Position numbers and translations under genes: made by a program. DNA of 43,602 nt from a virus (lineage: Duplodnaviria; Heunggongvirae; Uroviricota; Caudoviricetes), in the IMG/VR virus record IMGVR_UViG_2541047812_000007, positions 1 to 43,602 of that record; one strand, given 5' to 3'. The notes below the pieces were generated by a model. That model saw only the letters and a list, made by a program, of their open reading frames with translations. It was not told where the DNA came from and did no database searches. Shown here in pieces: positions 7,006 through 41,667 of this stretch; position 1 is the first letter of the stretch, and each line of letters opens with the position of its first letter.

Positions 7006-7118
7006 ATTTACATCGCACTCCTCTTGTGCCATAGTAATCGGGCACTGGCAAAATCCAGTGCCGGGATTGGCGTCCCGGATTACTAAAAGGCGCATTCACC
7101 GCGCAAGCGGTTTTTTTA
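6998..7118 (+). ncRNA. Candidate small RNA or terminated leader (about 120 nt)
   Basis: Runs from the predicted promoter to an intrinsic terminator (ACCGC-gcaa-GCGGT plus T7 at 7098-7118); contains nested GC-rich hairpins; the overlapping ORFs have no SD and poor context. Confidence 0.3.
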
Positions 7119-7274
7119 TGCGTATAGCACGGCCACATTCGTATTATGGTGGGCTGTGTGGGGGCACCGAAAGGTGCGCCGGGTCCTTTTAGCCGGTTAC
7201 GCCAACCCTGCACAGTTCACCACCAACCGATTGGCGTCGGTAGTGGTGATTAACCAGACTAAAAGGTAACCACT

Positions 7275-7970
7275 ATGACAGCTACAAAAAGCACGTCCAT
7301 TTTTTCTTTCGAATCCCAAGCCGATATACGGGTAATCGTCATTAATGGTGAGCCATGGTTTATCGCTTCAGATGTTTGTCGGGCTATAGGCATAGCAAAC
7401 CATCGAGATGCTGTTCGAAAACTTGATGATGATGAGAAGGGCGTCGCTTCAACCGACACCCCTGGCGGTGAGCAAGAATCGATCATCATCTCCGAGTCAG
7501 GCCTCTACACACTGATCCTCCGCTGCCGCGACGCAGTGACACCAGGCACTATCCCCTACCGCTTTCGTAAATGGGTTACAGGTGAGGTTCTTCCTCAGAT
7601 CCGCCGCACCGGAAGTTACATTAAAAACTCGCTCCCGCAGGAAGAACGCATAAAGATGGTTGCCGACCAGGTAGCCAGCGCCACAGCATCAGCAGTGATG
7701 CAGGCAATGAAGGTAGAGAACAAAACCTACAGCGCCCCGCTGAAGCCCGGCTACCGCAGCCTGATTCACTCGCCGTCTGGTGTTCTCGGCCTGACGGAGA
7801 ACTCACTGCTGATGAATCTGCTGAACCAGTTACAGGACGACGGGCACGACGTATCGGGCGCGGCGGCGGAGCTGACCACCATGTTCTGCTACATCGTCGG
7901 TGTGAGCAAATGCCTGCGTGATATCCAGACCCACGCGGAGTACATCAACGACAAGGCAGGGTTCTTCTGA
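7275..7970 (+). CDS. Antirepressor, Bro-N N-terminal domain plus shared antirepressor C-terminal domain
   Basis: N-terminus has the Bro-N pattern (IRVIVINGEPWFIASDVCRAIG); C-terminal ~80 aa nearly identical to the C-termini of 9088-10026 and 41668-42318. Confidence 0.8.
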   Translation: MTATKSTSIFSFESQADIRVIVINGEPWFIASDVCRAIGIANHRDAVRKLDDDEKGVASTDTPGGEQESIIISESGLYTLILRCRDAVTPGTIPYRFRKWVTGEVLPQIRRTGSYIKNSLPQEERIKMVADQVASATASAVMQAMKVENKTYSAPLKPGYRSLIHSPSGVLGLTENSLLMNLLNQLQDDGHDVSGAAAELTTMFCYIVGVSKCLRDIQTHAEYINDKAGFF

Positions 7971-7993
7971 CGGCGGCGGCACAGGGACGTGCC
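7729..7993 (+). repeat. Copy 1 of a ~260-bp near-identical repeat (antirepressor 3' end plus ~25 bp)
   Basis: Over 95% identical by eye to 42073-42341 (direct) and to 9064-9318 (inverted). Confidence 0.8.
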
Positions 7994-8780: not shown

Positions 8781-8852
8781 GTGGACGAAACAAAAGTCAG
8801 TGCTACACTCATTGACGCCACATTGAGGTGGCTTATAGATGGAAATTTCACA

Positions 8853-9014
8853 ATGAAAAAAGCATTTGCTGCACTGTTCGTTTTGTTGTCTCTGGTAGCT
8901 TCAACTCAGGCCTTTGCCGGTCGTTGTCAGCACGACAGCGATACTGCCGCTGACGGCTCCCGCTGCGGTGGGCGTTCTGCGGATTCCCGCCCGGGTGGCG
9001 GTGGCATTCGTTAA
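8853..9014 (+). CDS. Small secreted peptide (53 aa), hypothetical
   Basis: Signal peptide MKKAFAALFVLLSLVASTQAFA; plausible promoter TTGACG-16-TATAGA upstream; weak SD. ORF-track start 8781 replaced by the internal ATG. Confidence 0.4.
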   Translation: MKKAFAALFVLLSLVASTQAFAGRCQHDSDTAADGSRCGGRSADSRPGGGGIR

Positions 9015-9063: not shown

Positions 9064-9318
9064 GCACGTCCCTGTGCCGCCGTTCTGTCAGAAGAACCCT
9101 GCCTTGTCGTTGATGTATTCCGCGTGCGTCTGGATATCACGCAGGCATTTGCTCACACCAACGATGTAGCAGAACATGGTGGTCAGCTCCGCCGCCGCGC
9201 CCGATACATCGTGCCCGTCTTCCTGTAACTGGTTCAGCAGATTCATCAGCAGTGAGTTCTCCGTCAGGCCGAGAACACCCGACGGCGAATGAATCAGACT
9301 GCGGTAGCCTGGCTTCAA
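9064..9318 (-). repeat. Copy 2 (inverted) of the ~260-bp antirepressor 3' repeat
   Basis: Reverse complement aligns with 7729-7993 and 42073-42341 with few substitutions. Confidence 0.8.
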
Positions 9319-10026
9319 TGGATAACCATAACATTTTGTCTGTGTTTTAATTGCCTCACGAAGCGCATCTAACATCTTGACTGCCACTTCATCATTCTCT
9401 GATGCAGATCCAGCAGGGAGATACTCCCCTTCAAGCGGAACCCGAGCAACAAGAGACAACGCTTCGGCAAATTGATCTTCACCAATTTCTTTGTACGAAC
9501 AGCCAAAATGAGATTTCAGTGACGACCACATGGTGATCATCGCCTTAGCCTGTTTTTCTTTTGGCAGAGACTGACCGCGACTCATGACGAGTTGTTTAAT
9601 GGCTTCCTGCTGTTCAGTTGTTATTTTACCCGGCAACGCCTTTTTAGCTTTGCGTGGGTTAACCACATGGCCTTTAGTCCAGTACTCGTAGAGCACATCG
9701 TCACACTCTTCCTGATACTGGATTACCTTGTCGCGGATTTCAGGGCGGACTTTGTTAGGGCTGATGCTGTTCAACCAAGCTGCCAATTTTCGTAAAGCCA
9801 TACAAATCATGGCTTGCACCCCACCGGCAGAAGGTATGGTGATTTCCACCATACCCTTCGAGAAGCGTTGAGAAATCTTCTTATGTTGAGATTTCCAGTC
9901 TAGCCCCATTCCCTCAACGATAGGTTTCATTGGGGTATACGGTTCGCCGTTGTGATTGACAACATAAAGCTCTGCGCCGTGGAATGGCACGTTGATAGTA
10001 GATACTGCTGTTGCTATACTCGTCAT
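9088..10026 (-). CDS. Antirepressor (ant-like), distinct N-terminal domain plus shared C-terminal domain
   Basis: 312 aa; SD AGGA before ATG; sits downstream of an Arc-like gene as in P22 immI; C-terminus shared with the other antirepressors. Confidence 0.8.
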   Translation of the reverse strand: MTSIATAVSTINVPFHGAELYVVNHNGEPYTPMKPIVEGMGLDWKSQHKKISQRFSKGMVEITIPSAGGVQAMICMALRKLAAWLNSISPNKVRPEIRDKVIQYQEECDDVLYEYWTKGHVVNPRKAKKALPGKITTEQQEAIKQLVMSRGQSLPKEKQAKAMITMWSSLKSHFGCSYKEIGEDQFAEALSLVARVPLEGEYLPAGSASENDEVAVKMLDALREAIKTQTKCYGYPLKPGYRSLIHSPSGVLGLTENSLLMNLLNQLQEDGHDVSGAAAELTTMFCYIVGVSKCLRDIQTHAEYINDKAGFF

Positions 10027-10098
10027 GTCGTTAATTCCTATACGTAGTTTTACGATACTGAAGCCCTGACGGTCTGGCCACCGTGGGGCTTCGCTGTT

Positions 10099-10266
10099 TT
10101 ATGCCACGCTATTCTTCTCACCAGTGAGTCCATACACTTTCCTCAGCTGATAGATAATCTCTGTATTGAACTTTCGGCATTCTTTTTCGCCATTTCTTTC
10201 AATAGCTAACTTCACATCGTCCGGAAAACGAACTCGTCGTTGACACATCTCTTTTGCTTTTTGCAT
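10099..10266 (-). CDS. Arc-like ribbon-helix-helix repressor
   Basis: 55 aa from internal ATG with SD AAGGAG 7 nt upstream; resembles P22 Arc (RFPDDVKLAIERNG...NTEIIYQLRK). Confidence 0.6.
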   Translation of the reverse strand: MQKAKEMCQRRVRFPDDVKLAIERNGEKECRKFNTEIIYQLRKVYGLTGEKNSVA

Positions 10267-10280
10267 TTCATATCTCCTTA

Positions 10281-10295
10281 GCCCCACCGTGGGGC
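10281..10295. promoter_or_regulatory. Palindrome GCCCCACCGTGGGGC upstream of the arc-like gene
   Basis: Inverted repeat next to the arc SD; core CCACCGTGG recurs at 10078-10086 and 29359-29367. Confidence 0.35.
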
Positions 10296-10386
10296 AAAAT
10301 AATTGTCACACCGTGCGTCATTGATGTCAAGCACACGGTGAGGCATACTTCAATCATTGCAAGTAACTCAATATTTGGTGAAGAAC

Positions 10387-10818
10387 ATGAGCAGAGAAGA
10401 TCCACAACTAAGGATCAGACTTCCCGTCGAAGTAAAAGAAAAAATAGAAATTTCTGCAAAAGCCAATAAGCGATCAATGAACGCTGAAATAGTACAACGT
10501 CTTGACACCAGCTTTCTGAAAGATATTCATGAAGATGACGTAATTTCTGCTTATGAAGCAAAAATCATTGCAAACAATGCACGACATGAAATATCAAATA
10601 TTATTTTCAAAAGAACCTTTAATGAAATTAATAAGAAAATAACACTTGGACATACAAGTTTTTATATAAACCTTAATGACCTTGAACTGGAATCACTTGC
10701 AGATAATGATTACCAGATCATCTTTGAAAAAACATTTAATAGGCTCAATGAACTAGGTTACATCATCTGTGAAAACTCATGGGATGCAGATGGTTTTGGA
10801 ATTGAAATACCTGAATAG
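10387..10818 (+). CDS. Mnt-like ribbon-helix-helix regulator with a ~95-aa C-terminal extension
   Basis: N-terminus resembles P22 Mnt/Arc (LRIRLPVEVKEKIEISAKANKRSMNAEIVQRL); divergent from arc/ant; AT-rich C-terminal domain of unknown family. Confidence 0.6.
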   Translation: MSREDPQLRIRLPVEVKEKIEISAKANKRSMNAEIVQRLDTSFLKDIHEDDVISAYEAKIIANNARHEISNIIFKRTFNEINKKITLGHTSFYINLNDLELESLADNDYQIIFEKTFNRLNELGYIICENSWDADGFGIEIPE

Positions 10819-10831
10819 GAAGAACAAAAGG

Positions 10832-10848
10832 CGTGTACATATTACACG
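10832..10848. promoter_or_regulatory. Perfect palindrome CGTGTA-CATAT-TACACG
   Basis: 17-bp inverted repeat between the mnt-like gene and the membrane protein gene. Confidence 0.3.
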
Positions 10849-10908
10849 TCTTTAATACAATTGAAAAACGCCACATTACTGATGTATGTTACAACAAGGA
10901 GCGATATT

Positions 10909-11472
10909 TTGAAAACCATATCTATATTAAAGGTTGCATTAGGCGTCGCTATTATTTTGACTCTCTCAATATTGTTTTATTTTTACCACAAACAAACTGC
11001 TATTGCTCTTGATAGTCACGCGGCAAACTCATTTTTCTCAGAGTACATAGTGCCGCTATCAGGAAGCGGTATAACAAATAAATATACTGACTATGACATC
11101 AAATATGGAATTGATGATGGGGAGACTATTGTATTACATGTAATCATTAAAAACCTAATGACAGTAAATAAAAATACAGACTTCAACGATAAAAATACAA
11201 TACATCACAACAACAGCAAAACATTAATTTCTTATAGTAGCAACATCTATACGGATAAATACCTAAAATACATATCAGAAGATACAATAAAAGAAACCCG
11301 CGAAAAGTTAAAAAACATATATTGTGCATCCGGCAGTTTTCACAAATTATCGCCGCAAGAGCGTTTATTCTACGAAGCAAGAAAACAACGTAAGTCAATA
11401 ATATTACATTATTATGCTGATTCAGGGGAGACACTCATATTTAATATTGGGGTTTCCCCTGAATCATGCTAA
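10909..11472 (+). CDS. AT-rich membrane-anchored protein, candidate superinfection-exclusion moron
   Basis: TTG start 7 nt after strong SD AAGGAG (ORF-track start 10861 also TTG); N-terminal TM helix; roughly 33% GC; occupies the position of sieA in P22-type maps. Confidence 0.55.
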   Translation: MKTISILKVALGVAIILTLSILFYFYHKQTAIALDSHAANSFFSEYIVPLSGSGITNKYTDYDIKYGIDDGETIVLHVIIKNLMTVNKNTDFNDKNTIHHNNSKTLISYSSNIYTDKYLKYISEDTIKETREKLKNIYCASGSFHKLSPQERLFYEARKQRKSIILHYYADSGETLIFNIGVSPESC

Positions 11473-11483
11473 AGGTGTTTAAC

Positions 11484-14400
11484 TCACCGCATCACCGGAT
11501 CCACTTGGTTTATTAGTGGCGCAATCCAGAACAGGTTATTGCCGGGTATCAGGGTTCGGACATTATGCACAATACGATCACCGGCATCACCATTCAACAC
11601 TCCTGAGGTCACATCAATGATGCTATCCGCAAGACCAAATGACGGTCCGAATAGAGATCCTACGAATCCACGACTGGCATACCTGGACTGTGTGCCAGTG
11701 CCAAATAAAGCCCCCAGCCCAACAGCACCACCAGTCGCCTTTTCAGCCATGTTGTTATATTCCATCAATGGCCCAAGAATACCGGATCTATCTATACCCT
11801 CAAGCACCAGCTTCTCTGGTGACCAGTCAACATTTTTCCCTTTCGATGCTTCTTTAAGCGCATAGACCAGTGAGCCAAGAGCAATCTGAAATGCAGTGCC
11901 ATAATAAAATTGCGCAGTTCCTTCCTGTAACCCACCAAGTAGCGCACGGTTGTATGAAGCCGTTGTGAATGATTTAAACTGAAATATCGTTCGCCCCATT
12001 GGAGTACTCGCCCATAAAGGTGTGTCACCAATACCGGGGGTGATGATAGTGTTATTAACGTCTTTCAGAACCGCTGACTGGAATACTCCGGCAACGTACT
12101 GATCGTCCCATTTATCAAAGTTACCAATGTGCCATCCATCAATTACCTCACCATGTTTCTCGAACTCACTGCGAATACGCGCAGCCATATTGTCGTTGAT
12201 ACCGAGTTTTGCCATGCGACGTGCAGAAAACGCACCAGACAAAATACCGTCTGACGTGAGCATTCCGTTCATGGATTTGTTTATGTCATTAAATCGATCC
12301 ATGAGTGTCAGCTTGCCGAAGGCATCAGTAATTCGCTCCATTCCTGCTTCGACTGCTGTTGTCCTGGAAGAACTGTCAACAAGATCACCAATTGCACGAG
12401 AACGTGAATGTAGTACAGTTTCCAATCCAATCCCCATCTTCAACATCTCTTCTTTGCTGGCCTTAAATGCCGGTGATTGGGATATCTGAGAAGCATAGCC
12501 TTTCATGGAGTTACGGAAACCATTAACCATAACCCCTCTGGCCAGATCTGGAATAGCTGATACTGTCATTCCACCGAGTTTGGTCGTGAAGTTCACATCC
12601 CGCAGAAAAGCGCCAGCACGAACAAAAAACGAAGACGGGTCATCAGGCATACCATATGTACCAACAAGACGATCGCGTAATGCTGTTATGTCTCTGAGAT
12701 CATTTGCTCTTGATTTTGAAAGTCTGGACTGTTCTTTCCGTAATTCCTTTTCGTACTTTCGCATTAATGAATCGAGTTTACCCTGAGGAACAACTTCACC
12801 ATTGCTCTCATAACGTGCTTTCAGATTTGCCACACTTTCGTCATATTTCGCCTTTATTTTTTCAGGCACTTCCCGTAACAGACTGTCATATTCGTCCTCA
12901 ATTAATTGCAGACGCTCTGTCATAGTTCGTTTGCCAAATGTTCTCGTCAACTCAATTTCTGCTGCCGCTTCACGGATATGACGTTGTAGAACGTAATTCA
13001 CATCACTTTCGAGATAATCCCTGATAAGACTATCAGGCACATTTAATGTTCTTTCTTTCGTACTACCTGCGGCTTTTACAGAAAATACGCTGACAAAATC
13101 CTGTGGAACCTTAGCACCAGTAATTTTATTAATTACGATATCCGCTGCAATTTCAGCATCCTCAGGATCCAGTGTTTTATTGCCTCTCGACCACCAGTCA
13201 ACCAAAATACGTCGAAATTTATCGCGTTCACTGATTATTTTTCCAACTTTATATATACGTGGGAAATAGCTTGCCTGGCCTAATGCTTTCAGTTCTTCAT
13301 CTGGCGGCAATAAACCAAGCTTTTGCATTTCAACCTTCACCCGATTTAATACAGTTCGCATCGCCTGCGCCGTTTCCTGAACAACAGGATTAGCATGCAC
13401 ATCACCGCTTCGCATAGCATTCCCAACCTGCTGACGAAATGAATCAAAACTCATGTCACCACCATCAGCTTTATACTTTGCGTATGCCTGTTTATTTCCG
13501 ACAACAACAGCAGCTTCTTCACGCTGCCATCCACGTGTACGGGTTTCTACAGCTACCGGTGTTTCAATCCCCCTTTCATTTCCTTTAAGGGTGAAATTAT
13601 TTTCGGCTAACTCCAGCGTTGTTTTTCGCACTGTCTTGGACGGAGACTCCATTAACCTTGTCAAAGGAGTAAGATAGCTCCCTGCTTTCCATGCAGCCTT
13701 TCCAACCACCCCACCGGAAACAGGGGTTAAATCATCCAGAGTCGCTGTATCAATTTTCATAGCACCAACACTACCACCATCAGAAAGCGAAGCGGCAGCC
13801 CTGTCAGTCGCTGATGTAATGCTCATATTATCAAGAGCATCAGCAACCTCACGCGTGGCTGCAGCCCGGACGGATGGCGAAAGCGCAACACCAGCACTGG
13901 CAAACACGCCGCTCATCATCGCACCCGCTGCAATGTGAGCGGCACTTTCACCCCATGAGCGTGTTATTTGCTGATTATTCAGCACAACCTCGCTTAATGC
14001 TGTACCGGCTGCACCAATCGCAATCTGTGAGCCAATACGCGCCAGTGCCCCTCCTTGAGCACCGGGGATAAACATTGACGCAACAGTAACCGGATCCATT
14101 CCCGCAGCAATACTGGCAAGGGTTCCAACTACGCCAGCATCAGACAATAAACGTCTGTCTTCATTTTCATCATCTATCTGCTGCTTAATCCACGCCGTTT
14201 CCTCTGGCGATCGGGAATCTGCAAATTTCGCCCCCCAGTATTCATAACCGTGCAACTCATTTTTATCAGCATATGGGTTATAACCTTCGACCGGTTCAAA
14301 CTGTCTGGCTGGTCGGAAAAAACCAGCCAGAATATTGTTCTGTCGCATTGCAGCCCCCCATACGGAAGGCTCCGGTGGCAATGGCTCAGGATTAGCCCCT

Positions 14401-14498
14401 TCCGGAAGGGCAACATCAAACCCAGTTTGTTCCGGCAAAACATTACCTGACGGGATCAGTCCGTTATTAAGATCTTCAGCTTGTGCATAAACTGGCAT
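11484..14498 (-). CDS. Large internal virion/ejection protein (1004 aa)
   Basis: Long ORF in the virion operon downstream of the transglycosylase protein; size and position like podovirus internal core proteins. Confidence 0.65.
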   Translation of the reverse strand: MPVYAQAEDLNNGLIPSGNVLPEQTGFDVALPEGANPEPLPPEPSVWGAAMRQNNILAGFFRPARQFEPVEGYNPYADKNELHGYEYWGAKFADSRSPEETAWIKQQIDDENEDRRLLSDAGVVGTLASIAAGMDPVTVASMFIPGAQGGALARIGSQIAIGAAGTALSEVVLNNQQITRSWGESAAHIAAGAMMSGVFASAGVALSPSVRAAATREVADALDNMSITSATDRAAASLSDGGSVGAMKIDTATLDDLTPVSGGVVGKAAWKAGSYLTPLTRLMESPSKTVRKTTLELAENNFTLKGNERGIETPVAVETRTRGWQREEAAVVVGNKQAYAKYKADGGDMSFDSFRQQVGNAMRSGDVHANPVVQETAQAMRTVLNRVKVEMQKLGLLPPDEELKALGQASYFPRIYKVGKIISERDKFRRILVDWWSRGNKTLDPEDAEIAADIVINKITGAKVPQDFVSVFSVKAAGSTKERTLNVPDSLIRDYLESDVNYVLQRHIREAAAEIELTRTFGKRTMTERLQLIEDEYDSLLREVPEKIKAKYDESVANLKARYESNGEVVPQGKLDSLMRKYEKELRKEQSRLSKSRANDLRDITALRDRLVGTYGMPDDPSSFFVRAGAFLRDVNFTTKLGGMTVSAIPDLARGVMVNGFRNSMKGYASQISQSPAFKASKEEMLKMGIGLETVLHSRSRAIGDLVDSSSRTTAVEAGMERITDAFGKLTLMDRFNDINKSMNGMLTSDGILSGAFSARRMAKLGINDNMAARIRSEFEKHGEVIDGWHIGNFDKWDDQYVAGVFQSAVLKDVNNTIITPGIGDTPLWASTPMGRTIFQFKSFTTASYNRALLGGLQEGTAQFYYGTAFQIALGSLVYALKEASKGKNVDWSPEKLVLEGIDRSGILGPLMEYNNMAEKATGGAVGLGALFGTGTQSRYASRGFVGSLFGPSFGLADSIIDVTSGVLNGDAGDRIVHNVRTLIPGNNLFWIAPLINQVDPVMR

Positions 14499-17215
14499 TA
14501 TTTAGATCCCCACGAAAAGTAATCTTTAAATTTGTCCATACGTTCGTTATGCAGGCGCTGATACTGCTCATCCAGAGCGCGATGCTTGTCTTTGAAGTTT
14601 CGTATAGCCTGTCCACGCATAATTTCTTCCTGCTCGTACTGCTCCCGTTCCTGCTGCATTTTCTTATAAGGTTCCCAATCTTCTAGTGATGGTTCCCAAC
14701 GCATAGGACGCCCATGTTTGTTATAAAACGGCTGGACCCGATCGATGCCATTTTCATCCTTAGTTCTTACCATAATGGCGTAATCACCATTACGAGGTGT
14801 TAACACGTCAGGGGTTATGAATAATTCTCCATTAATACGACTCTCAGGGGTTTTTGTCTCAACTACAGGAGCATTACCTGACGTGATCCCAAGCAACGTC
14901 GGACTGGTTGTTATAATCTCTTTGCGCTCACCGTACATCAGCCGTTCTTTTTCAGCTTTCCACTGCGCCGCCTGCCAGCCTGACGGCCCATATTGATAAA
15001 GCGCCTCCGGTGCATATTTCATAAACTGCGCTTCTCCGTTAACCTCGCTGATACTCCAGGTGCGGGCTATCTGCTGGTTGGTCATTTGCTTCGCTACGTC
15101 AGCGTTACCACCAGCAACGCGGTAGTTAATGTCATACAGCGTCTGATAGTCATTACGGAATCTAGCTGCTTCCGGCGTCTGGTCATCCGCAGACGGATCC
15201 CAACGGAACCACTGCGCCATATTGCTGACAGCAGAATTCATCGCCTTGCTGCGATTATTTTTGTACTCTTTTGAACTCTGCGTTGATGCCAATTGAGCTT
15301 TAAGAGCATCGGTCTGGTTGTACGTCAGGTTCTGCGCCTGCTCGATAGCCGCATCAGCAGACATGCCAGAATCTGTTAGTTGCTTAACAGTCAGATAAAA
15401 ACCCTGCATATCCTTCGGCATATTTCCAATAGATGCATTGTCTGTTTCATATAACCGACTAAACAAATTCGCTGCATTTTTAACCACTTCCTGATTGCTG
15501 GATCTGGATACTGCTGAAAGCTGCGTGATGACCTGCGAAGGCATGATGCCAGTCTGAGCCACAAGCCGAACAACCCCATCATGAGTGGAGGCATCATTAA
15601 TACGAAAGTTCTGCGCCATTTCTGTGTAATCAGCAGCTTTCTGCATTGATTTGTTGCTTGGGTCTAATTTTTCACCTATTGTCAGCGCCTCATTGAATCT
15701 GCGTGAATCACGTTGCGCCTGAATTGCTTCATTTGATCGCTGAAGCAATGCAGACAATTTTCCGTAAGCATCGAGTTTTAACGCATAGTGAGGATCGTTA
15801 ACCTCAGGCTTCACTTTCTGCATTTCTTCTTGCTGCTGAGAAGGAGGTAAATACTGAATTGCCTGGAATATTCTCGCGTTATCAATCGCTATATCCAGTT
15901 GATTGATTATTTTATCTGCATTTTTTCCATACCCCCTGATGATAGTCTCCTGAGCCGGTATATAATCTGGAACCTCACCGTTATATAGCTGGGCCATGGT
16001 GTTATTAATAGCTGGCTCAAGCTGTTCTAATATTAACTTCCTTTGCTTTTCTATCTGACTATTAGCAAGGTTATCTATTTGATAAATAGTCAGCGGATCC
16101 ATTCCAGTTTTATTTTTTCTATATCGGGAAAGCCACCCTTGTGTTTCTGATGGAAGATTTCGGATAAATTCTTCTTCTGATATTTCACCTTTACGTGGAT
16201 CACCGACTTTGGCGATCAGTTTATCCACGTTACCCATCCCCCAGTTATATGCTGCTCCGGTCAATATTTCGGAGCCGTACTTACCATACAGTTGATTTAC
16301 ATAGTCACTGGCGAGCATTTCATGCTGTTGTTCGTCCGTAGGGTTGTATTTAACGCCACGCTTGGCCGCCAGTTCTTTCCCTGTGCCCGGCATTAACTGG
16401 TATTTCCCCTGGGCTCTCTCTCCAGAAGATGTTATCGGTCCTTCAAGAAGACTACCATCAGGATTAAAATGTCGATCACCTGATTCAACAAGGCGTATGG
16501 CACGCATGTCCATGCCTCCAGAATCATTTTTCTGAAACAGACCATTTAGCCATCCTTCTGGATTGGCAGCGGCATAATTCTTCGCCCGCATTTCTGTGGC
16601 ACGGCGATCATCACTTTCTATTTCTTCCAGAATGCGTTCTTGTGACCATCCCCTGGCAGCTCCATATCTAGCAATGGCTACCATTCTGGAATTTCTGGCT
16701 AAAGTGGCAGTTTGCGGGTCATTCCAGGCATCCGCTTCATTTTGTATCCATAATTTTCTCGTTGCCTGATATTGCTCATCTTCATAGGCATTTGTCTGCC
16801 CTATCTCATGTCTGAGAACTCCAGTACTGAACTGAATTTTCTGTGTTCTGGCTTGTTGCAAAAACATATTTCTTGCTGCTTCATCAGTCAATGAAGCAGC
16901 TATTTCTTCCACATCCTGATCAAATCCAGATATGTACTCTTGCCCCTTACCAATCGCATTTTTGCCTTGTTGTGCATAAAAACCGGTTTGAGGGTTATAA
17001 AGACGTTCATTGCTGCGCTGATTAAGCTGAAGGATGGCATCCTGAGACAATGCAACATTCGCTTTCTGCCTGGCTTCACCATATGCCACCGCATACTGAT
17101 CTGCGACATTCGCCAGCACCTGACCTGCTTGAGGAACATCGAAGATCTGAAAACCACCGGTTTGCACACCACGACTTTGCACCTGGCGTCCGGATGTAGT
17201 AGGAACAACAGGCAT
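14498..17215 (-). CDS. Internal virion protein with lytic transglycosylase (SLT) domain
   Basis: SLT motifs LVESGD, AQGKYQLMPGT and AAYNWGMGNV at aa ~235-335 (nt ~16211-16515). Confidence 0.8.
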   Translation of the reverse strand: MPVVPTTSGRQVQSRGVQTGGFQIFDVPQAGQVLANVADQYAVAYGEARQKANVALSQDAILQLNQRSNERLYNPQTGFYAQQGKNAIGKGQEYISGFDQDVEEIAASLTDEAARNMFLQQARTQKIQFSTGVLRHEIGQTNAYEDEQYQATRKLWIQNEADAWNDPQTATLARNSRMVAIARYGAARGWSQERILEEIESDDRRATEMRAKNYAAANPEGWLNGLFQKNDSGGMDMRAIRLVESGDRHFNPDGSLLEGPITSSGERAQGKYQLMPGTGKELAAKRGVKYNPTDEQQHEMLASDYVNQLYGKYGSEILTGAAYNWGMGNVDKLIAKVGDPRKGEISEEEFIRNLPSETQGWLSRYRKNKTGMDPLTIYQIDNLANSQIEKQRKLILEQLEPAINNTMAQLYNGEVPDYIPAQETIIRGYGKNADKIINQLDIAIDNARIFQAIQYLPPSQQQEEMQKVKPEVNDPHYALKLDAYGKLSALLQRSNEAIQAQRDSRRFNEALTIGEKLDPSNKSMQKAADYTEMAQNFRINDASTHDGVVRLVAQTGIMPSQVITQLSAVSRSSNQEVVKNAANLFSRLYETDNASIGNMPKDMQGFYLTVKQLTDSGMSADAAIEQAQNLTYNQTDALKAQLASTQSSKEYKNNRSKAMNSAVSNMAQWFRWDPSADDQTPEAARFRNDYQTLYDINYRVAGGNADVAKQMTNQQIARTWSISEVNGEAQFMKYAPEALYQYGPSGWQAAQWKAEKERLMYGERKEIITTSPTLLGITSGNAPVVETKTPESRINGELFITPDVLTPRNGDYAIMVRTKDENGIDRVQPFYNKHGRPMRWEPSLEDWEPYKKMQQEREQYEQEEIMRGQAIRNFKDKHRALDEQYQRLHNERMDKFKDYFSWGSK

Positions 17216-26541: not shown

Positions 26542-26618
26542 GTGGCATTAGCTCAGTTGGACAGAGCAACCGCCTTCTAAGCGGTTGGTCGCAGGTTCGA
26601 ATCCTGCATGCCACGCCA
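26542..26618 (+). tRNA. tRNA-Arg, anticodon UCU (reads AGA)
   Basis: 77-nt cloverleaf folded by hand: acceptor GTGGCAT/ATGCCAC, D-arm GCTC/GAGC, anticodon stem ACCGC/GCGGT with loop CTTCTAA, T-arm GCAGG-TTCGAAT-CCTGC, discriminator G, encoded CCA. Confidence 0.9.
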
Positions 26619-41343: not shown

Positions 41344-41667
41344 AATCACGCCTGACGAATCGCGATTATCTCGCTATTGGTATTGCAGAGATTGCTGGAC
41401 TCAATGGCGCATGATTTGACAATGCCGCCAGAGCTATCGCATACTGACCGCACTAGAAAACAAACAGCGGTCATCCGCACCCGATAGCTTTGCGGCTTTT
41501 TTATGCCTGCAATCTGGCATAGTCACATCCGTACAAAGGTCGGGTGGAGAGGCGTAATACAACACCCGAAAGGGGAATATGCCCGGAGCTACTGTTTGTG
41601 CTCTAGTTGACACCCGATCACCAGCTACTAACTGGTTTTCGTAACTAAAAACAAACAGGAGGTCATC

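What the first reader, a model, noticed from the sequence alone, without database searches (positions are those of the whole stretch)
10060..11472. immI-like module (mnt-like, arc, ant) joined to an AT-rich membrane protein where P22 carries sieA
Arc-like and ant genes are co-oriented and divergent from an Mnt-like gene, mirroring P22 immI. Here the Mnt-like protein carries an unrecognised ~95-aa C-terminal domain, and directly downstream is a 187-aa, ~33% GC protein with a single N-terminal TM helix, separated by a perfect 17-bp palindrome (10832-10848). The position between the ejection-protein genes and immI matches that of the superinfection-exclusion gene sieA in P22. The pair could be a DNA-entry exclusion or abortive-infection system with a dedicated regulator.
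Basis: partly seen in the sequence, partly recalled or inferred. Interest (0 to 1): 0.65.

Follow-up and report, generated by a model that had tools for sequence, protein, structure and literature searches.

The report
Periplasmic candidate exclusion gene beside immI
An E. coli prophage carries a complete P22-type antirepressor switch, and next to it sits an uncharacterised exported protein that always lies beside the phage's last DNA-ejection gene, which makes it a good but untested candidate for blocking infection by related phages.

Summary
The window is a TL-2011b-like podovirus prophage of E. coli. The immI reading holds and is strengthened. The module contains ant (39% identical to P22 Ant), a sar antisense RNA (Rfam, above threshold), arc, three conserved CACNGTG operators and a divergent Mnt-like gene.

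The "perfect 17-bp palindrome" is really a hairpin with 6-bp arms and a 5-nt loop, most likely the mnt terminator.

The 143-aa Mnt-like protein is not a dedicated regulator. With arc and an antirepressor, it forms a mobile cassette found in Yersinia, Enterobacter and Salmonella prophages that lack the 187-aa gene.

The 187-aa protein is not a SieA homologue. It belongs to a small unannotated family with these features:
- an N-terminal anchor or signal peptide;
- two invariant cysteines;
- a predicted periplasmic fold closest to the pilotin AspS and PA3611.

In 43 of 43 loci (nine or more lineages, down to 28% identity) it lies 13-41 bp from the convergent terminal ejection-protein gene, whatever lies upstream. 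One member is fused to a copy of that ejection protein's conserved N-terminal motif.

Best reading: a periplasm-acting functional analogue of SieA. This is untested.

The parts
9088..10026 (-). ant antirepressor, 312 aa
   Evidence: Pfam P22_AR_N 5.9e-45. 39% identical to P22 Ant over 217 aa, E 2e-37.
10028..10095 (+). sar antisense RNA, between the arc stop and the ant start
   Evidence: Rfam RF00262, 44.8 bits against a gathering score of 43; full-length model match, E 5.8e-8 in the local search. Same position as in P22.
10099..10266 (-). arc-like ribbon-helix-helix repressor, 55 aa
   Evidence: 33% identical to P22 Arc over 40 aa, E 4e-5. PHROG Arc-like repressor 3.4e-5. A 55-aa gene sits in the same place in the cassettes of other genera.
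10281..10345 (.). Operator region: three CACNGTG-cored palindromes at 10281-10295, 10304-10320 and 10334-10345, spaced 23-25 bp apart
   Evidence: Conserved in the Y. pestis, Enterobacter and Salmonella cassettes. Their position matches Omnt and Oarc of P22. Binding was not tested.
10302..10330 (-). Pant-like sigma-70 promoter reading into arc and ant
   Evidence: TTGACA, 17-nt spacer, GACAAT with an upstream TG; 10 of 12 matches. This is a consensus match only.
10387..10818 (+). Mnt-like repressor, 143 aa: ribbon-helix-helix domain (aa 2-46) plus a conserved C-terminal domain of unknown fold (aa 47-143)
   Evidence: Pfam Arc 1.1e-14. 44% identical to the P22 Mnt N-terminal domain, hhalign probability 97.5%. 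Full-length phrog_1388. 261 full-length relatives at 60-70% identity.
10827..10853 (.). Hairpin with an 11-bp stem (one G-U pair) and a 5-nt loop, probably the mnt terminator (possibly bidirectional)
   Evidence: Terminator-like on the minus strand. Other cassettes have a hairpin directly after the mnt-like stop codon. P22 has a terminator before PsieA.
10909..11472 (+). 187-aa exported protein: TM anchor (aa 3-27) and predicted AspS/PA3611-like periplasmic domain (aa ~30-187), with invariant Cys139 (11323-11325) and Cys187 (11467-11469). Candidate superinfection-exclusion gene.
11484..14498 (-). Terminal ejection (internal virion) protein, 1004 aa, convergent with the 187-aa gene
   Evidence: Homologues at 42-100% identity lie next to every family member.
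14166..14303 (-). Conserved N-terminal motif of the ejection protein (aa 66-111: FEPVEGYNPYADKNELHGYEYWGAKFADSRSPEETAWIKQQIDDE)
   Evidence: It holds the 13 invariant columns of the nine aligned N-terminal ejection-protein segments. A diverged copy is fused to family member P0145.
14498..17215 (-). Ejection protein with an SLT lytic-transglycosylase domain, 905 aa
   Evidence: Pfam SLT 3.9e-7. RefSeq annotation.

Best explanation
Two separable things lie side by side.

1. A complete P22-type immI switch (ant, sar RNA, arc, operators, Mnt-like repressor). It is carried as a mobile cassette. The Mnt-like protein keeps ant off in the lysogen, and its extra C-terminal domain most likely provides oligomerisation for cooperative binding to the three operators (inferred).

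2. An independently promoted, AT-rich accessory gene. Its 187-aa product is inserted in the inner membrane by an N-terminal anchor and displays a disulfide-stabilised, AspS/PA3611-like protein-binding domain in the periplasm. I propose that in the lysogen this domain meets the ejection proteins of a superinfecting related podophage. The periplasm during infection is the only place where an exported protein and the ejection proteins can meet. I propose that it binds them, probably at the conserved N-terminal motif of the terminal ejection protein, and so blocks assembly or function of the trans-envelope DNA conduit. That would make it a functional analogue of P22 SieA, with a different fold and acting from a different compartment.

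Shown here: gene anatomy, family, linkage and the fusion. Predicted here: export signals and fold. Inferred: periplasmic location, expression in the lysogen, binding target and exclusion phenotype.
For: immI module:
- Homology of ant, arc and the Mnt N-terminal domain to P22; sar RNA; conserved operators; order identical to P22.

187-aa protein:
- The family has only about 18 representatives among 1.8 billion proteins, and all members that carry a name are called hypothetical.
- Most members have a positively charged N-terminus followed by a hydrophobic segment. Some have signal peptides that look cleavable (..AFA|S). Two cysteines 48-50 residues apart are present in every full-length member. 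No member has a lipobox.
- In 43 of 43 loci from E. coli, Serratia, Providencia, Proteus-type (by protein name) and metagenomic lineages, the gene lies 13-41 bp from, and convergent with, the homologous terminal ejection gene. The upstream neighbour varies: Mnt-like, another Arc protein, a divergent Bro-N gene, ORF6N, a 175-aa gene on the opposite strand, a 98-aa membrane protein or terminase genes.
- Identity of the family member falls together with identity of the ejection protein: 48%/69%, 28%/50%, 29%/42%.
- P0145 is TM + family domain + a 60-aa copy of the ejection protein's N-terminal motif, with all 13 invariant residues, + a C-terminal TM followed by KKKH. This places the motif in the periplasm.
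- E. coli prophages with a 99% identical ejection gene carry a different protein with a single N-terminal TM at the same spot. A locus that swaps unrelated membrane proteins in this way is what one expects of an exclusion locus.
- Within E. coli, dN/dS is about 0.7-0.8 for this gene against 0.04-0.26 for its neighbours, but this rests on only 8 substitutions.
- P22 SieA sets the precedent for exclusion encoded at this position and acting on ejection proteins (PMC10883804).
Against: - There is no phenotype, expression, localisation or binding data.
- No sequence similarity to SieA or to any known exclusion or defence protein.
- Adjacency could simply reflect an old insertion at the end of the late operon. 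The linkage can be broken by replacement: about 8 of 44 E. coli prophages with this ejection gene lack the family member.
- Relatives such as Klebsiella phage ST512-KPC3phi13.3 and phage EC.W1-9 have no such gene.
- The fusion protein comes from a single metagenomic contig.
- Whether the N-terminal motif of the ejection protein is ever exposed in the periplasm is unknown.
Confidence: 0.45

Rival explanations
1. It is a lysogenic-conversion gene with an envelope function unrelated to phage entry. For example, it could be a pilotin-like binder of a host secretin or other periplasmic or outer-membrane protein, affecting secretion, adhesion or fitness. On this view it sits at the end of the late operon only because that is a permissive insertion site.
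For: AT-rich composition typical of a moron. The closest folds are a secretin pilotin and a secreted Pseudomonas protein of unknown role. Neighbouring genes are accessory cargo, including a YafO toxin-antitoxin pair in TL-2011b and a small secreted peptide. No known exclusion family matches.
Against: A random moron site does not explain 43 of 43 adjacency through different genome architectures, including loci where terminase genes lie upstream. It does not explain the parallel fall in identity with the ejection protein, or the fusion to an ejection-protein motif. There is no lipobox and no sequence similarity to pilotins.
Confidence: 0.25
2. It is a periplasmic inhibitor of the lytic-transglycosylase (SLT) domain of the 905-aa ejection protein. 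This would be a T4 Spackle-like mechanism: exclusion by stopping incoming phage from cutting peptidoglycan.
For: The domain is predicted to be periplasmic. An SLT-bearing ejection protein is encoded two genes away. The Spackle precedent is from my own knowledge and was not tested here.
Confidence: 0.1
3. One reading: the Mnt-like protein and the 187-aa protein form a two-gene abortive-infection or toxin system, in which the ribbon-helix-helix protein is the dedicated regulator or antitoxin acting at the 10832-10848 repeat.
For: The two genes are co-oriented, adjacent and similarly AT-rich. They are always together in E. coli (36 of 36). In L004 an Arc-family gene overlaps the start of the homologue. 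PADLOC gives a weak ThsB/TIR hit, E 0.005.
Against: Each gene is found widely without the other. In L004 the upstream Arc protein has an unrelated C-terminus. No operator core lies near the 187-aa gene. The repeat is imperfect and sits at the terminator position. The model is not TIR-like. An exported, disulfide-bonded domain fits poorly with a cytoplasmic toxin.
Confidence: 0.05

Closest known systems
P22 immI region (mnt, arc, sar RNA, ant)
   Same: Same gene order and orientation. Ant is 39% identical, Arc 33%, and the Mnt N-terminal ribbon-helix-helix domain 44%. A sar RNA is present above the Rfam threshold. Palindromic operators lie between divergent promoters. The module sits between the ejection genes and the tailspike side of the genome.
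   Different: The Mnt-like protein is 143 aa, not 83. Its C-terminal 95 aa are unrelated to the Mnt tetramerisation helix and contain an internal repeat (IIFKRTFN / IIFEKTFN, 39 aa apart). There are three operators with a CACNGTG core. The cassette is also found inside the tail regions of siphovirus- and lambda-like prophages.
P22 SieA superinfection-exclusion protein (PMC10883804; phrog_7745)
   Same: Same genomic position: downstream of mnt, after a hairpin or terminator, convergent on the last ejection-protein gene with a gap of about 10-20 bp. It is small and membrane-associated, and the locus shows unrelated sequence types at one position.
   Different: No homology (hhalign probability 0.6%). 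One TM or signal peptide instead of 3-4 TM segments. No FxRYPxEAxxFNK motif. The bulk of the protein is predicted to be periplasmic, not in the membrane or cytoplasm. The host phages have T7-core-like rather than P22-like ejection proteins.
AspS/EpsS type II secretion pilotins and P. aeruginosa PA3611 (PDB 4ftf, 6i2v, 3npd; PMC3542185)
   Different: No detectable sequence similarity. No lipobox. The protein is anchored by a TM helix or is soluble. The E. coli clade has a 29-aa insertion. It is encoded by prophages with no secretin gene nearby.
Other systems that block phage DNA entry from the envelope: the HXS periplasmic effector (PMC13128918), and HK97 gp15, TP-J34 Ltp and Tuc2009 Sie2009 as listed in PMC10883804
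   Same: The concept: a host- or prophage-encoded envelope protein that stops genome delivery after adsorption.
   Different: The proteins are unrelated. HXS needs rSAM maturation and is proposed to act on DNA. The others target long-tailed phages. None is linked to a podovirus ejection gene.

Membership tests
P22-type immI module | Ant antirepressor with a P22_AR N-terminal domain | tested here: met
   Pfam 5.9e-45. 39% identity to P22 Ant.
P22-type immI module | Arc ribbon-helix-helix repressor immediately upstream of ant and co-oriented with it | tested here: met
   55 aa, 33% identical to P22 Arc, E 4e-5. PHROG Arc-like.
P22-type immI module | sar antisense RNA across the arc-ant junction | tested here: met
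   RF00262, 44.8 bits against a gathering score of 43, at 10028-10095 on the strand opposite to ant.
P22-type immI module | Divergent Mnt repressor: N-terminal ribbon-helix-helix domain | tested here: met
   hhalign probability 97.5%, 44% identity over 43 aa. PDB 1mnt hit, 2.9e-7.
P22-type immI module | Mnt C-terminal tetramerisation helix | tested here: not met
   The alignment to P22 Mnt stops at residue 43. The C-terminal domain has no PDB or Pfam match.
P22-type immI module | Repressor binding to operators overlapping the divergent promoters | not testable with these tools
   Conserved palindromes lie at the right positions. Binding needs EMSA or footprinting.
SieA family | Sequence homology to SieA types A-C | tested here: not met
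   hhalign probability 0.6%. The two proteins fall in different PHROGs, 8033 and 7745.
SieA family | Three or four transmembrane segments | tested here: not met
   One hydrophobic segment only. The SieA description is from PMC10883804.
SieA family | Conserved motif FxRYPxEAxxFNK | tested here: not met
   Absent from all 18 family members scanned.
SieA family | Position next to and convergent with the last ejection-protein gene, on the immI side | tested here: met
   True of 43 of 43 family loci.
SieA family | Blocks DNA injection by related phages | not testable with these tools
   Needs plating, K+ efflux and DNA-entry assays.
AspS/PA3611 fold group | alpha1, beta1-3, alpha2, alpha3, beta4-5, alpha4 topology | tested here: met
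AspS/PA3611 fold group | Conserved disulfide linking alpha2 to the C-terminal helix | tested here: inconclusive
   Two invariant cysteines lie at the end of alpha2 and at the C-terminus. The distance in the model and the redox state could not be checked.
AspS/PA3611 fold group | Sequence-family membership, lipoprotein signal and secretin S-domain binding (pilotin function) | tested here: not met
   No Pfam hit for any of 12 members and no lipobox. Binding is not testable here.
Thoeris ThsB (TIR) | TIR / flavodoxin-like fold | tested here: not met

The most novel reading that the evidence does not exclude
The 187-aa family is a new class of superinfection-exclusion protein for podoviruses with T7-core-like ejection proteins. 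On this reading it is a pilotin-like periplasmic domain that captures the conserved N-terminal motif (EGYNP...GYE...SPEET..IK..ID) of the incoming phage's terminal ejection protein and so prevents conduit assembly. The fused variant would carry its own copy of the motif as a tethered decoy or autoinhibitory ligand. This would be the first ejection-protein-directed exclusion mechanism acting from the periplasm, and it would give a handle on how these ejection proteins cross the envelope.
Probability: 0.3. Interest if true: 0.75.

Novelty: new variant of a known kind. Interest (0 to 1): 0.58.

Why it matters
[quoted passage not shown] Here an unrelated protein family sits at the equivalent locus of a different podovirus group. 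It has a predicted periplasmic protein-binding fold and a natural fusion that points to a specific 46-residue target motif. That gives a concrete, cheap set of experiments (plating, escape mutants, pull-down with one peptide). These could show how ejection proteins assemble in the periplasm and how prophages protect E. coli from related phages, which matters for phage therapy host range. The exact protein occurs on more than 700 public contigs, in strains that include EHEC O103:H25 and an APEC O2:K1 isolate. The work also shows that the arc/sar?/mnt-like/antirepressor unit is a mobile cassette with a conserved, uncharacterised Mnt C-terminal domain; sar itself was checked only in this window.

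Tried and rejected
- TIR/Thoeris reading: the weak PADLOC ThsB hit is not backed by the fold.
- SieA homology: rejected.
- First AF2 model from a 2-sequence alignment: too weak to use (pLDDT 58). It was replaced by a model from an 11-sequence alignment.
- BFVD viral structure library: no match. The afdb50 library was unavailable.
- Pfam, NCBIfam and PADLOC: nothing for the 187-aa protein or its relatives.
- The search for related loci with the broad alignment failed because it had no sufficiently conserved stretch. A scan with Serratia P0142 found nothing in IMG/VR.
- The hairpin as an operator for the Mnt-like protein: rejected as the leading reading. It has no CACNGTG core, it sits at the terminator position, and it is absent from other family loci.
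- Homology between the 187-aa family and the alternative 175-aa protein at the same locus: none.
- Literature search for the accessions and for TL-2011b: no functional work on these genes.
Full report
**Context**
- The window is a TL-2011b-like podovirus prophage of E. coli. The region 10000-11500 is 99.5% identical to Escherichia phage TL-2011b.
- The region 9900-12900 is 100% identical to the chromosome of APEC O2:K1:H7 strain E18055. There RefSeq annotates the same ORFs.
- The neighbouring late genes encode a T7 gp14-family core protein, a 905-aa protein with an SLT domain and a 1004-aa terminal ejection protein.

**Checking the observation**
- The ORFs, orientations and composition are as described. 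The Mnt-like gene is at 10387-10818 (143 aa). The second gene is at 10909-11472 (187 aa), with a TTG start preceded by AAGGAG.
- GC is 32.6% and 32.4% for these two genes, against 48.2% for the window.
- The 187-aa protein has one hydrophobic segment, at residues about 3-27.
- The palindrome at 10281-10295 is real (7+1+7).
- The "perfect 17-bp palindrome" at 10832-10848 is not perfect. It has 6-bp arms around a 5-nt loop, extendable to an 11-bp stem with one G-U pair.

- Ant is 39% identical to P22 Ant.
- The 55-aa protein is 33% identical to P22 Arc.
- The N-terminal 43 residues of the Mnt-like protein are 44% identical to P22 Mnt.
- Rfam finds a full-length sar antisense RNA, above the gathering score, exactly between arc and ant on the opposite strand.
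- Three palindromes with a CACNGTG core lie between the divergent genes. A fourth CACNGTG at 10079 lies inside the sar terminator stem and should not be counted as an operator.
- The annotated P22 locus has the same order and orientation throughout: ant, sar, arc, operators, mnt, terminator, PsieA, sieA, then the convergent gene 16.

**The Mnt-like protein is not a private regulator of the 187-aa gene**
- Full-length relatives at 60-70% identity, including the C-terminal domain, number in the hundreds. They occur across Yersinia (including Y. pestis), Enterobacter, Salmonella, Citrobacter and Proteus.
- In nine loci examined they sit with a 55-aa gene in the arc position and a Bro-N antirepressor, inside the tail regions of siphovirus- or lambda-like prophages. 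The Mnt-like gene there converges directly on tail genes and no 187-aa homologue is called beside it.
- The arc-mnt intergenic region, including all three operators, is conserved at the DNA level in these cassettes.
- The C-terminal domain (aa 47-143) has no Pfam, NCBIfam or PDB sequence relative. It contains an internal repeat 39 residues apart (D2). I infer an oligomerisation role by analogy with the Mnt tetramerisation domain, but this is untested.
- The hairpin after the Mnt-like stop codon sits where the Y. pestis and Enterobacter cassettes carry GC-rich hairpins and where P22 has a terminator before PsieA. I read it as a terminator rather than an operator. Two promoter-like sites follow it.

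**The 187-aa protein: family and sequence features**
- Word-indexed searching found only close E. coli copies and one 48% relative.
- An exhaustive profile search of 1.8 billion representatives found 18 proteins. A second profile search added named hypothetical proteins from Serratia, Providencia and Proteus.
- The exact sequence is on 767 contigs. Every listed member of its cluster that carries a name is called hypothetical.
- Most family members have a positively charged N-terminus followed by a hydrophobic segment. In some clades this segment is a signal peptide that looks cleavable.
- All members share the motifs LSGxxAxFFxxYxVP and YYDxxGxxLxFxxGxxPxxC.
- Every full-length member has two cysteines 48-50 residues apart. 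No member has a lipobox or the SieA motif.
- These features point to an exported, disulfide-bonded periplasmic domain. In the E. coli clade it is tethered to the inner membrane.

**The 187-aa protein: predicted fold**
- With an 11-sequence alignment AlphaFold gives pLDDT 75 and pTM 0.68. The core blocks score 81-95, and a disordered insertion specific to the E. coli clade lies at residues 86-109.
- Foldseek independently puts AspS, PA3611 and EpsS on top.
- The published AspS topology and its conserved alpha2-alpha4 disulfide, shared with PA3611 (PMC3542185), correspond to the model's order of elements and to Cys139 and Cys187.
- P22 SieA is unrelated (hhalign probability 0.6%, a different PHROG, 3-4 TM segments).

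**Linkage to the ejection gene**
- In every locus recovered, the family member is followed within 13-41 bp by a convergent homologue (42-100% identical) of the 1004-aa ejection protein. This covers 39 loci and four more. They represent at least nine lineages, from E. coli, Serratia fonticola, Providencia, Proteus-type (by protein name) and metagenomes.
- The upstream neighbour changes freely. It is the 143-aa Mnt-like gene only in the E. coli clade. Elsewhere it is a different Arc-family protein that overlaps the start codon (L004), a divergent Bro-N gene (Serratia), a 175-aa gene on the opposite strand (Providencia), ORF6N, a 98-aa membrane protein, or terminase genes.
- Identity of the family member falls in step with that of the ejection protein, and faster than it.
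- The linkage can be broken. Of the 44 complete E. coli genomes with this ejection gene, 36 have the family member. The two of the others that were examined carry, at exactly the same place and in the same orientation, an unrelated 175-aa protein with a single N-terminal TM (phrog_21690). The breakpoint lies at the end of the ejection gene.
- More distant phages have a co-directional gene there instead.

**A natural fusion**
- P0145 (264 aa, one metagenomic contig) has four parts: the N-terminal anchor, the family domain, a 60-residue segment, and a C-terminal TM helix ending in KKKH.
- The 60-residue segment is 38% identical to residues 46-106 of its own phage's terminal ejection protein (E 9e-14). 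It is 50% identical to residues 66-111 of the window's protein (E 3e-13).
- The segment keeps all 13 invariant residues of the N-terminal part of these ejection proteins that was aligned. It is somewhat closer to the motif of a different ejection-protein type, 47% against 37%.
- The predicted topology places the copied motif in the periplasm.

**Interpretation**
- An exported protein can meet ejection proteins only in the periplasm of a cell that is being infected.
- This fits with the sieA-equivalent position, the fusion, the swapping of unrelated membrane proteins at the locus, and a suggestive but statistically weak excess of amino-acid changes within E. coli.
- Together these make a superinfection-exclusion role the best explanation. 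The protein would engage the incoming ejection proteins, probably the N-terminal motif, through a pilotin-like binding domain.
- This is an inference. There is no evidence on expression, location, binding or phenotype, and I put it at about 0.45.
- The main rival is an unrelated envelope function of a moron.

**Verdict**
The immI part is ordinary and known.
- The "pair with a dedicated regulator" idea is not supported.
- The 187-aa gene represents a previously uncharacterised family. It is a credible, experimentally tractable analogue of SieA, not a homologue.

Noticed in passing
window 7042-7227 (+) and 7275-7970 (+): isrK (77.9 bits) and C4 antisense RNA (77.7 bits) lie directly upstream of a Bro-N antirepressor gene. 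This is a second, P1/P7-c4-type antirepressor module in the same prophage, alongside the P22-type immI.
   Followed up: partly
window 7702-7971 and 9087-9356: A 270-bp inverted repeat, 90% complementary. The two antirepressors (231 aa and 312 aa) share about 80 C-terminal residues, and the repeat brackets a 1.1-kb cargo segment. In TL-2011b and the APEC strain that segment carries a YafO toxin-antitoxin pair; here it holds two unknown genes (phrog_14630 and phrog_14518). It may be a recombination or inversion cassette.
   Followed up: partly
window 8850-9014 (+): A 54-aa secreted or anchored peptide (phrog_14503, WP_000708858.1) with a signal peptide and a Gly/Arg-rich tail. It is conserved in this accessory region across related prophages. 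The hit to HxsA3 is only faint, E 0.07.
   Followed up: no
L023 4448-4975, L024 4448-4975 (E. coli MS8345, CE0007a): An unrelated 175-aa protein with one N-terminal TM helix (phrog_21690, function unknown) replaces the 187-aa gene and the Mnt-like gene next to a 99% identical ejection gene. It may be a second exclusion type at the same locus.
   Followed up: partly
L057 2958-3752: P0145 is a family member fused to a diverged copy of the ejection protein's N-terminal motif plus a C-terminal TM helix. It comes from a single Logan contig, so it needs confirmation in other assemblies.
   Followed up: yes
window 11490-11534: A 45-bp stretch at the 3' end of the ejection gene recurs at 97.8% identity in about 36 other E. 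coli genomes. In the one examined it is unannotated DNA inside a related prophage with a different (DUF919-type) ejection protein, between a 98-aa gene and a 283-aa gene. It looks like a module-boundary recombination sequence.
   Followed up: partly
window 10600-10623 and 10717-10740: An internal direct repeat in the Mnt-like C-terminal domain (IIFKRTFN / IIFEKTFN, 39 residues apart) suggests the domain arose by duplication of a helix-strand unit.
   Followed up: no
L001 6479-6820 / L042 (TL-2011b): In the TL-2011b record the Mnt-like gene is annotated as a 113-aa protein that lacks part of the ribbon-helix-helix domain. tblastn covers residues 10-143, and the nucleotide alignment shifts upstream. 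So the reference phage may carry an indel or a miscalled start.
   Followed up: no
window 41538-41627 (+) and 26542-26615 (+): An sRNA-Xcc1 match (64.8 bits) and a tRNA gene elsewhere in the prophage. The APEC copy annotates a tRNA-Arg in the corresponding part of the prophage.
   Followed up: no
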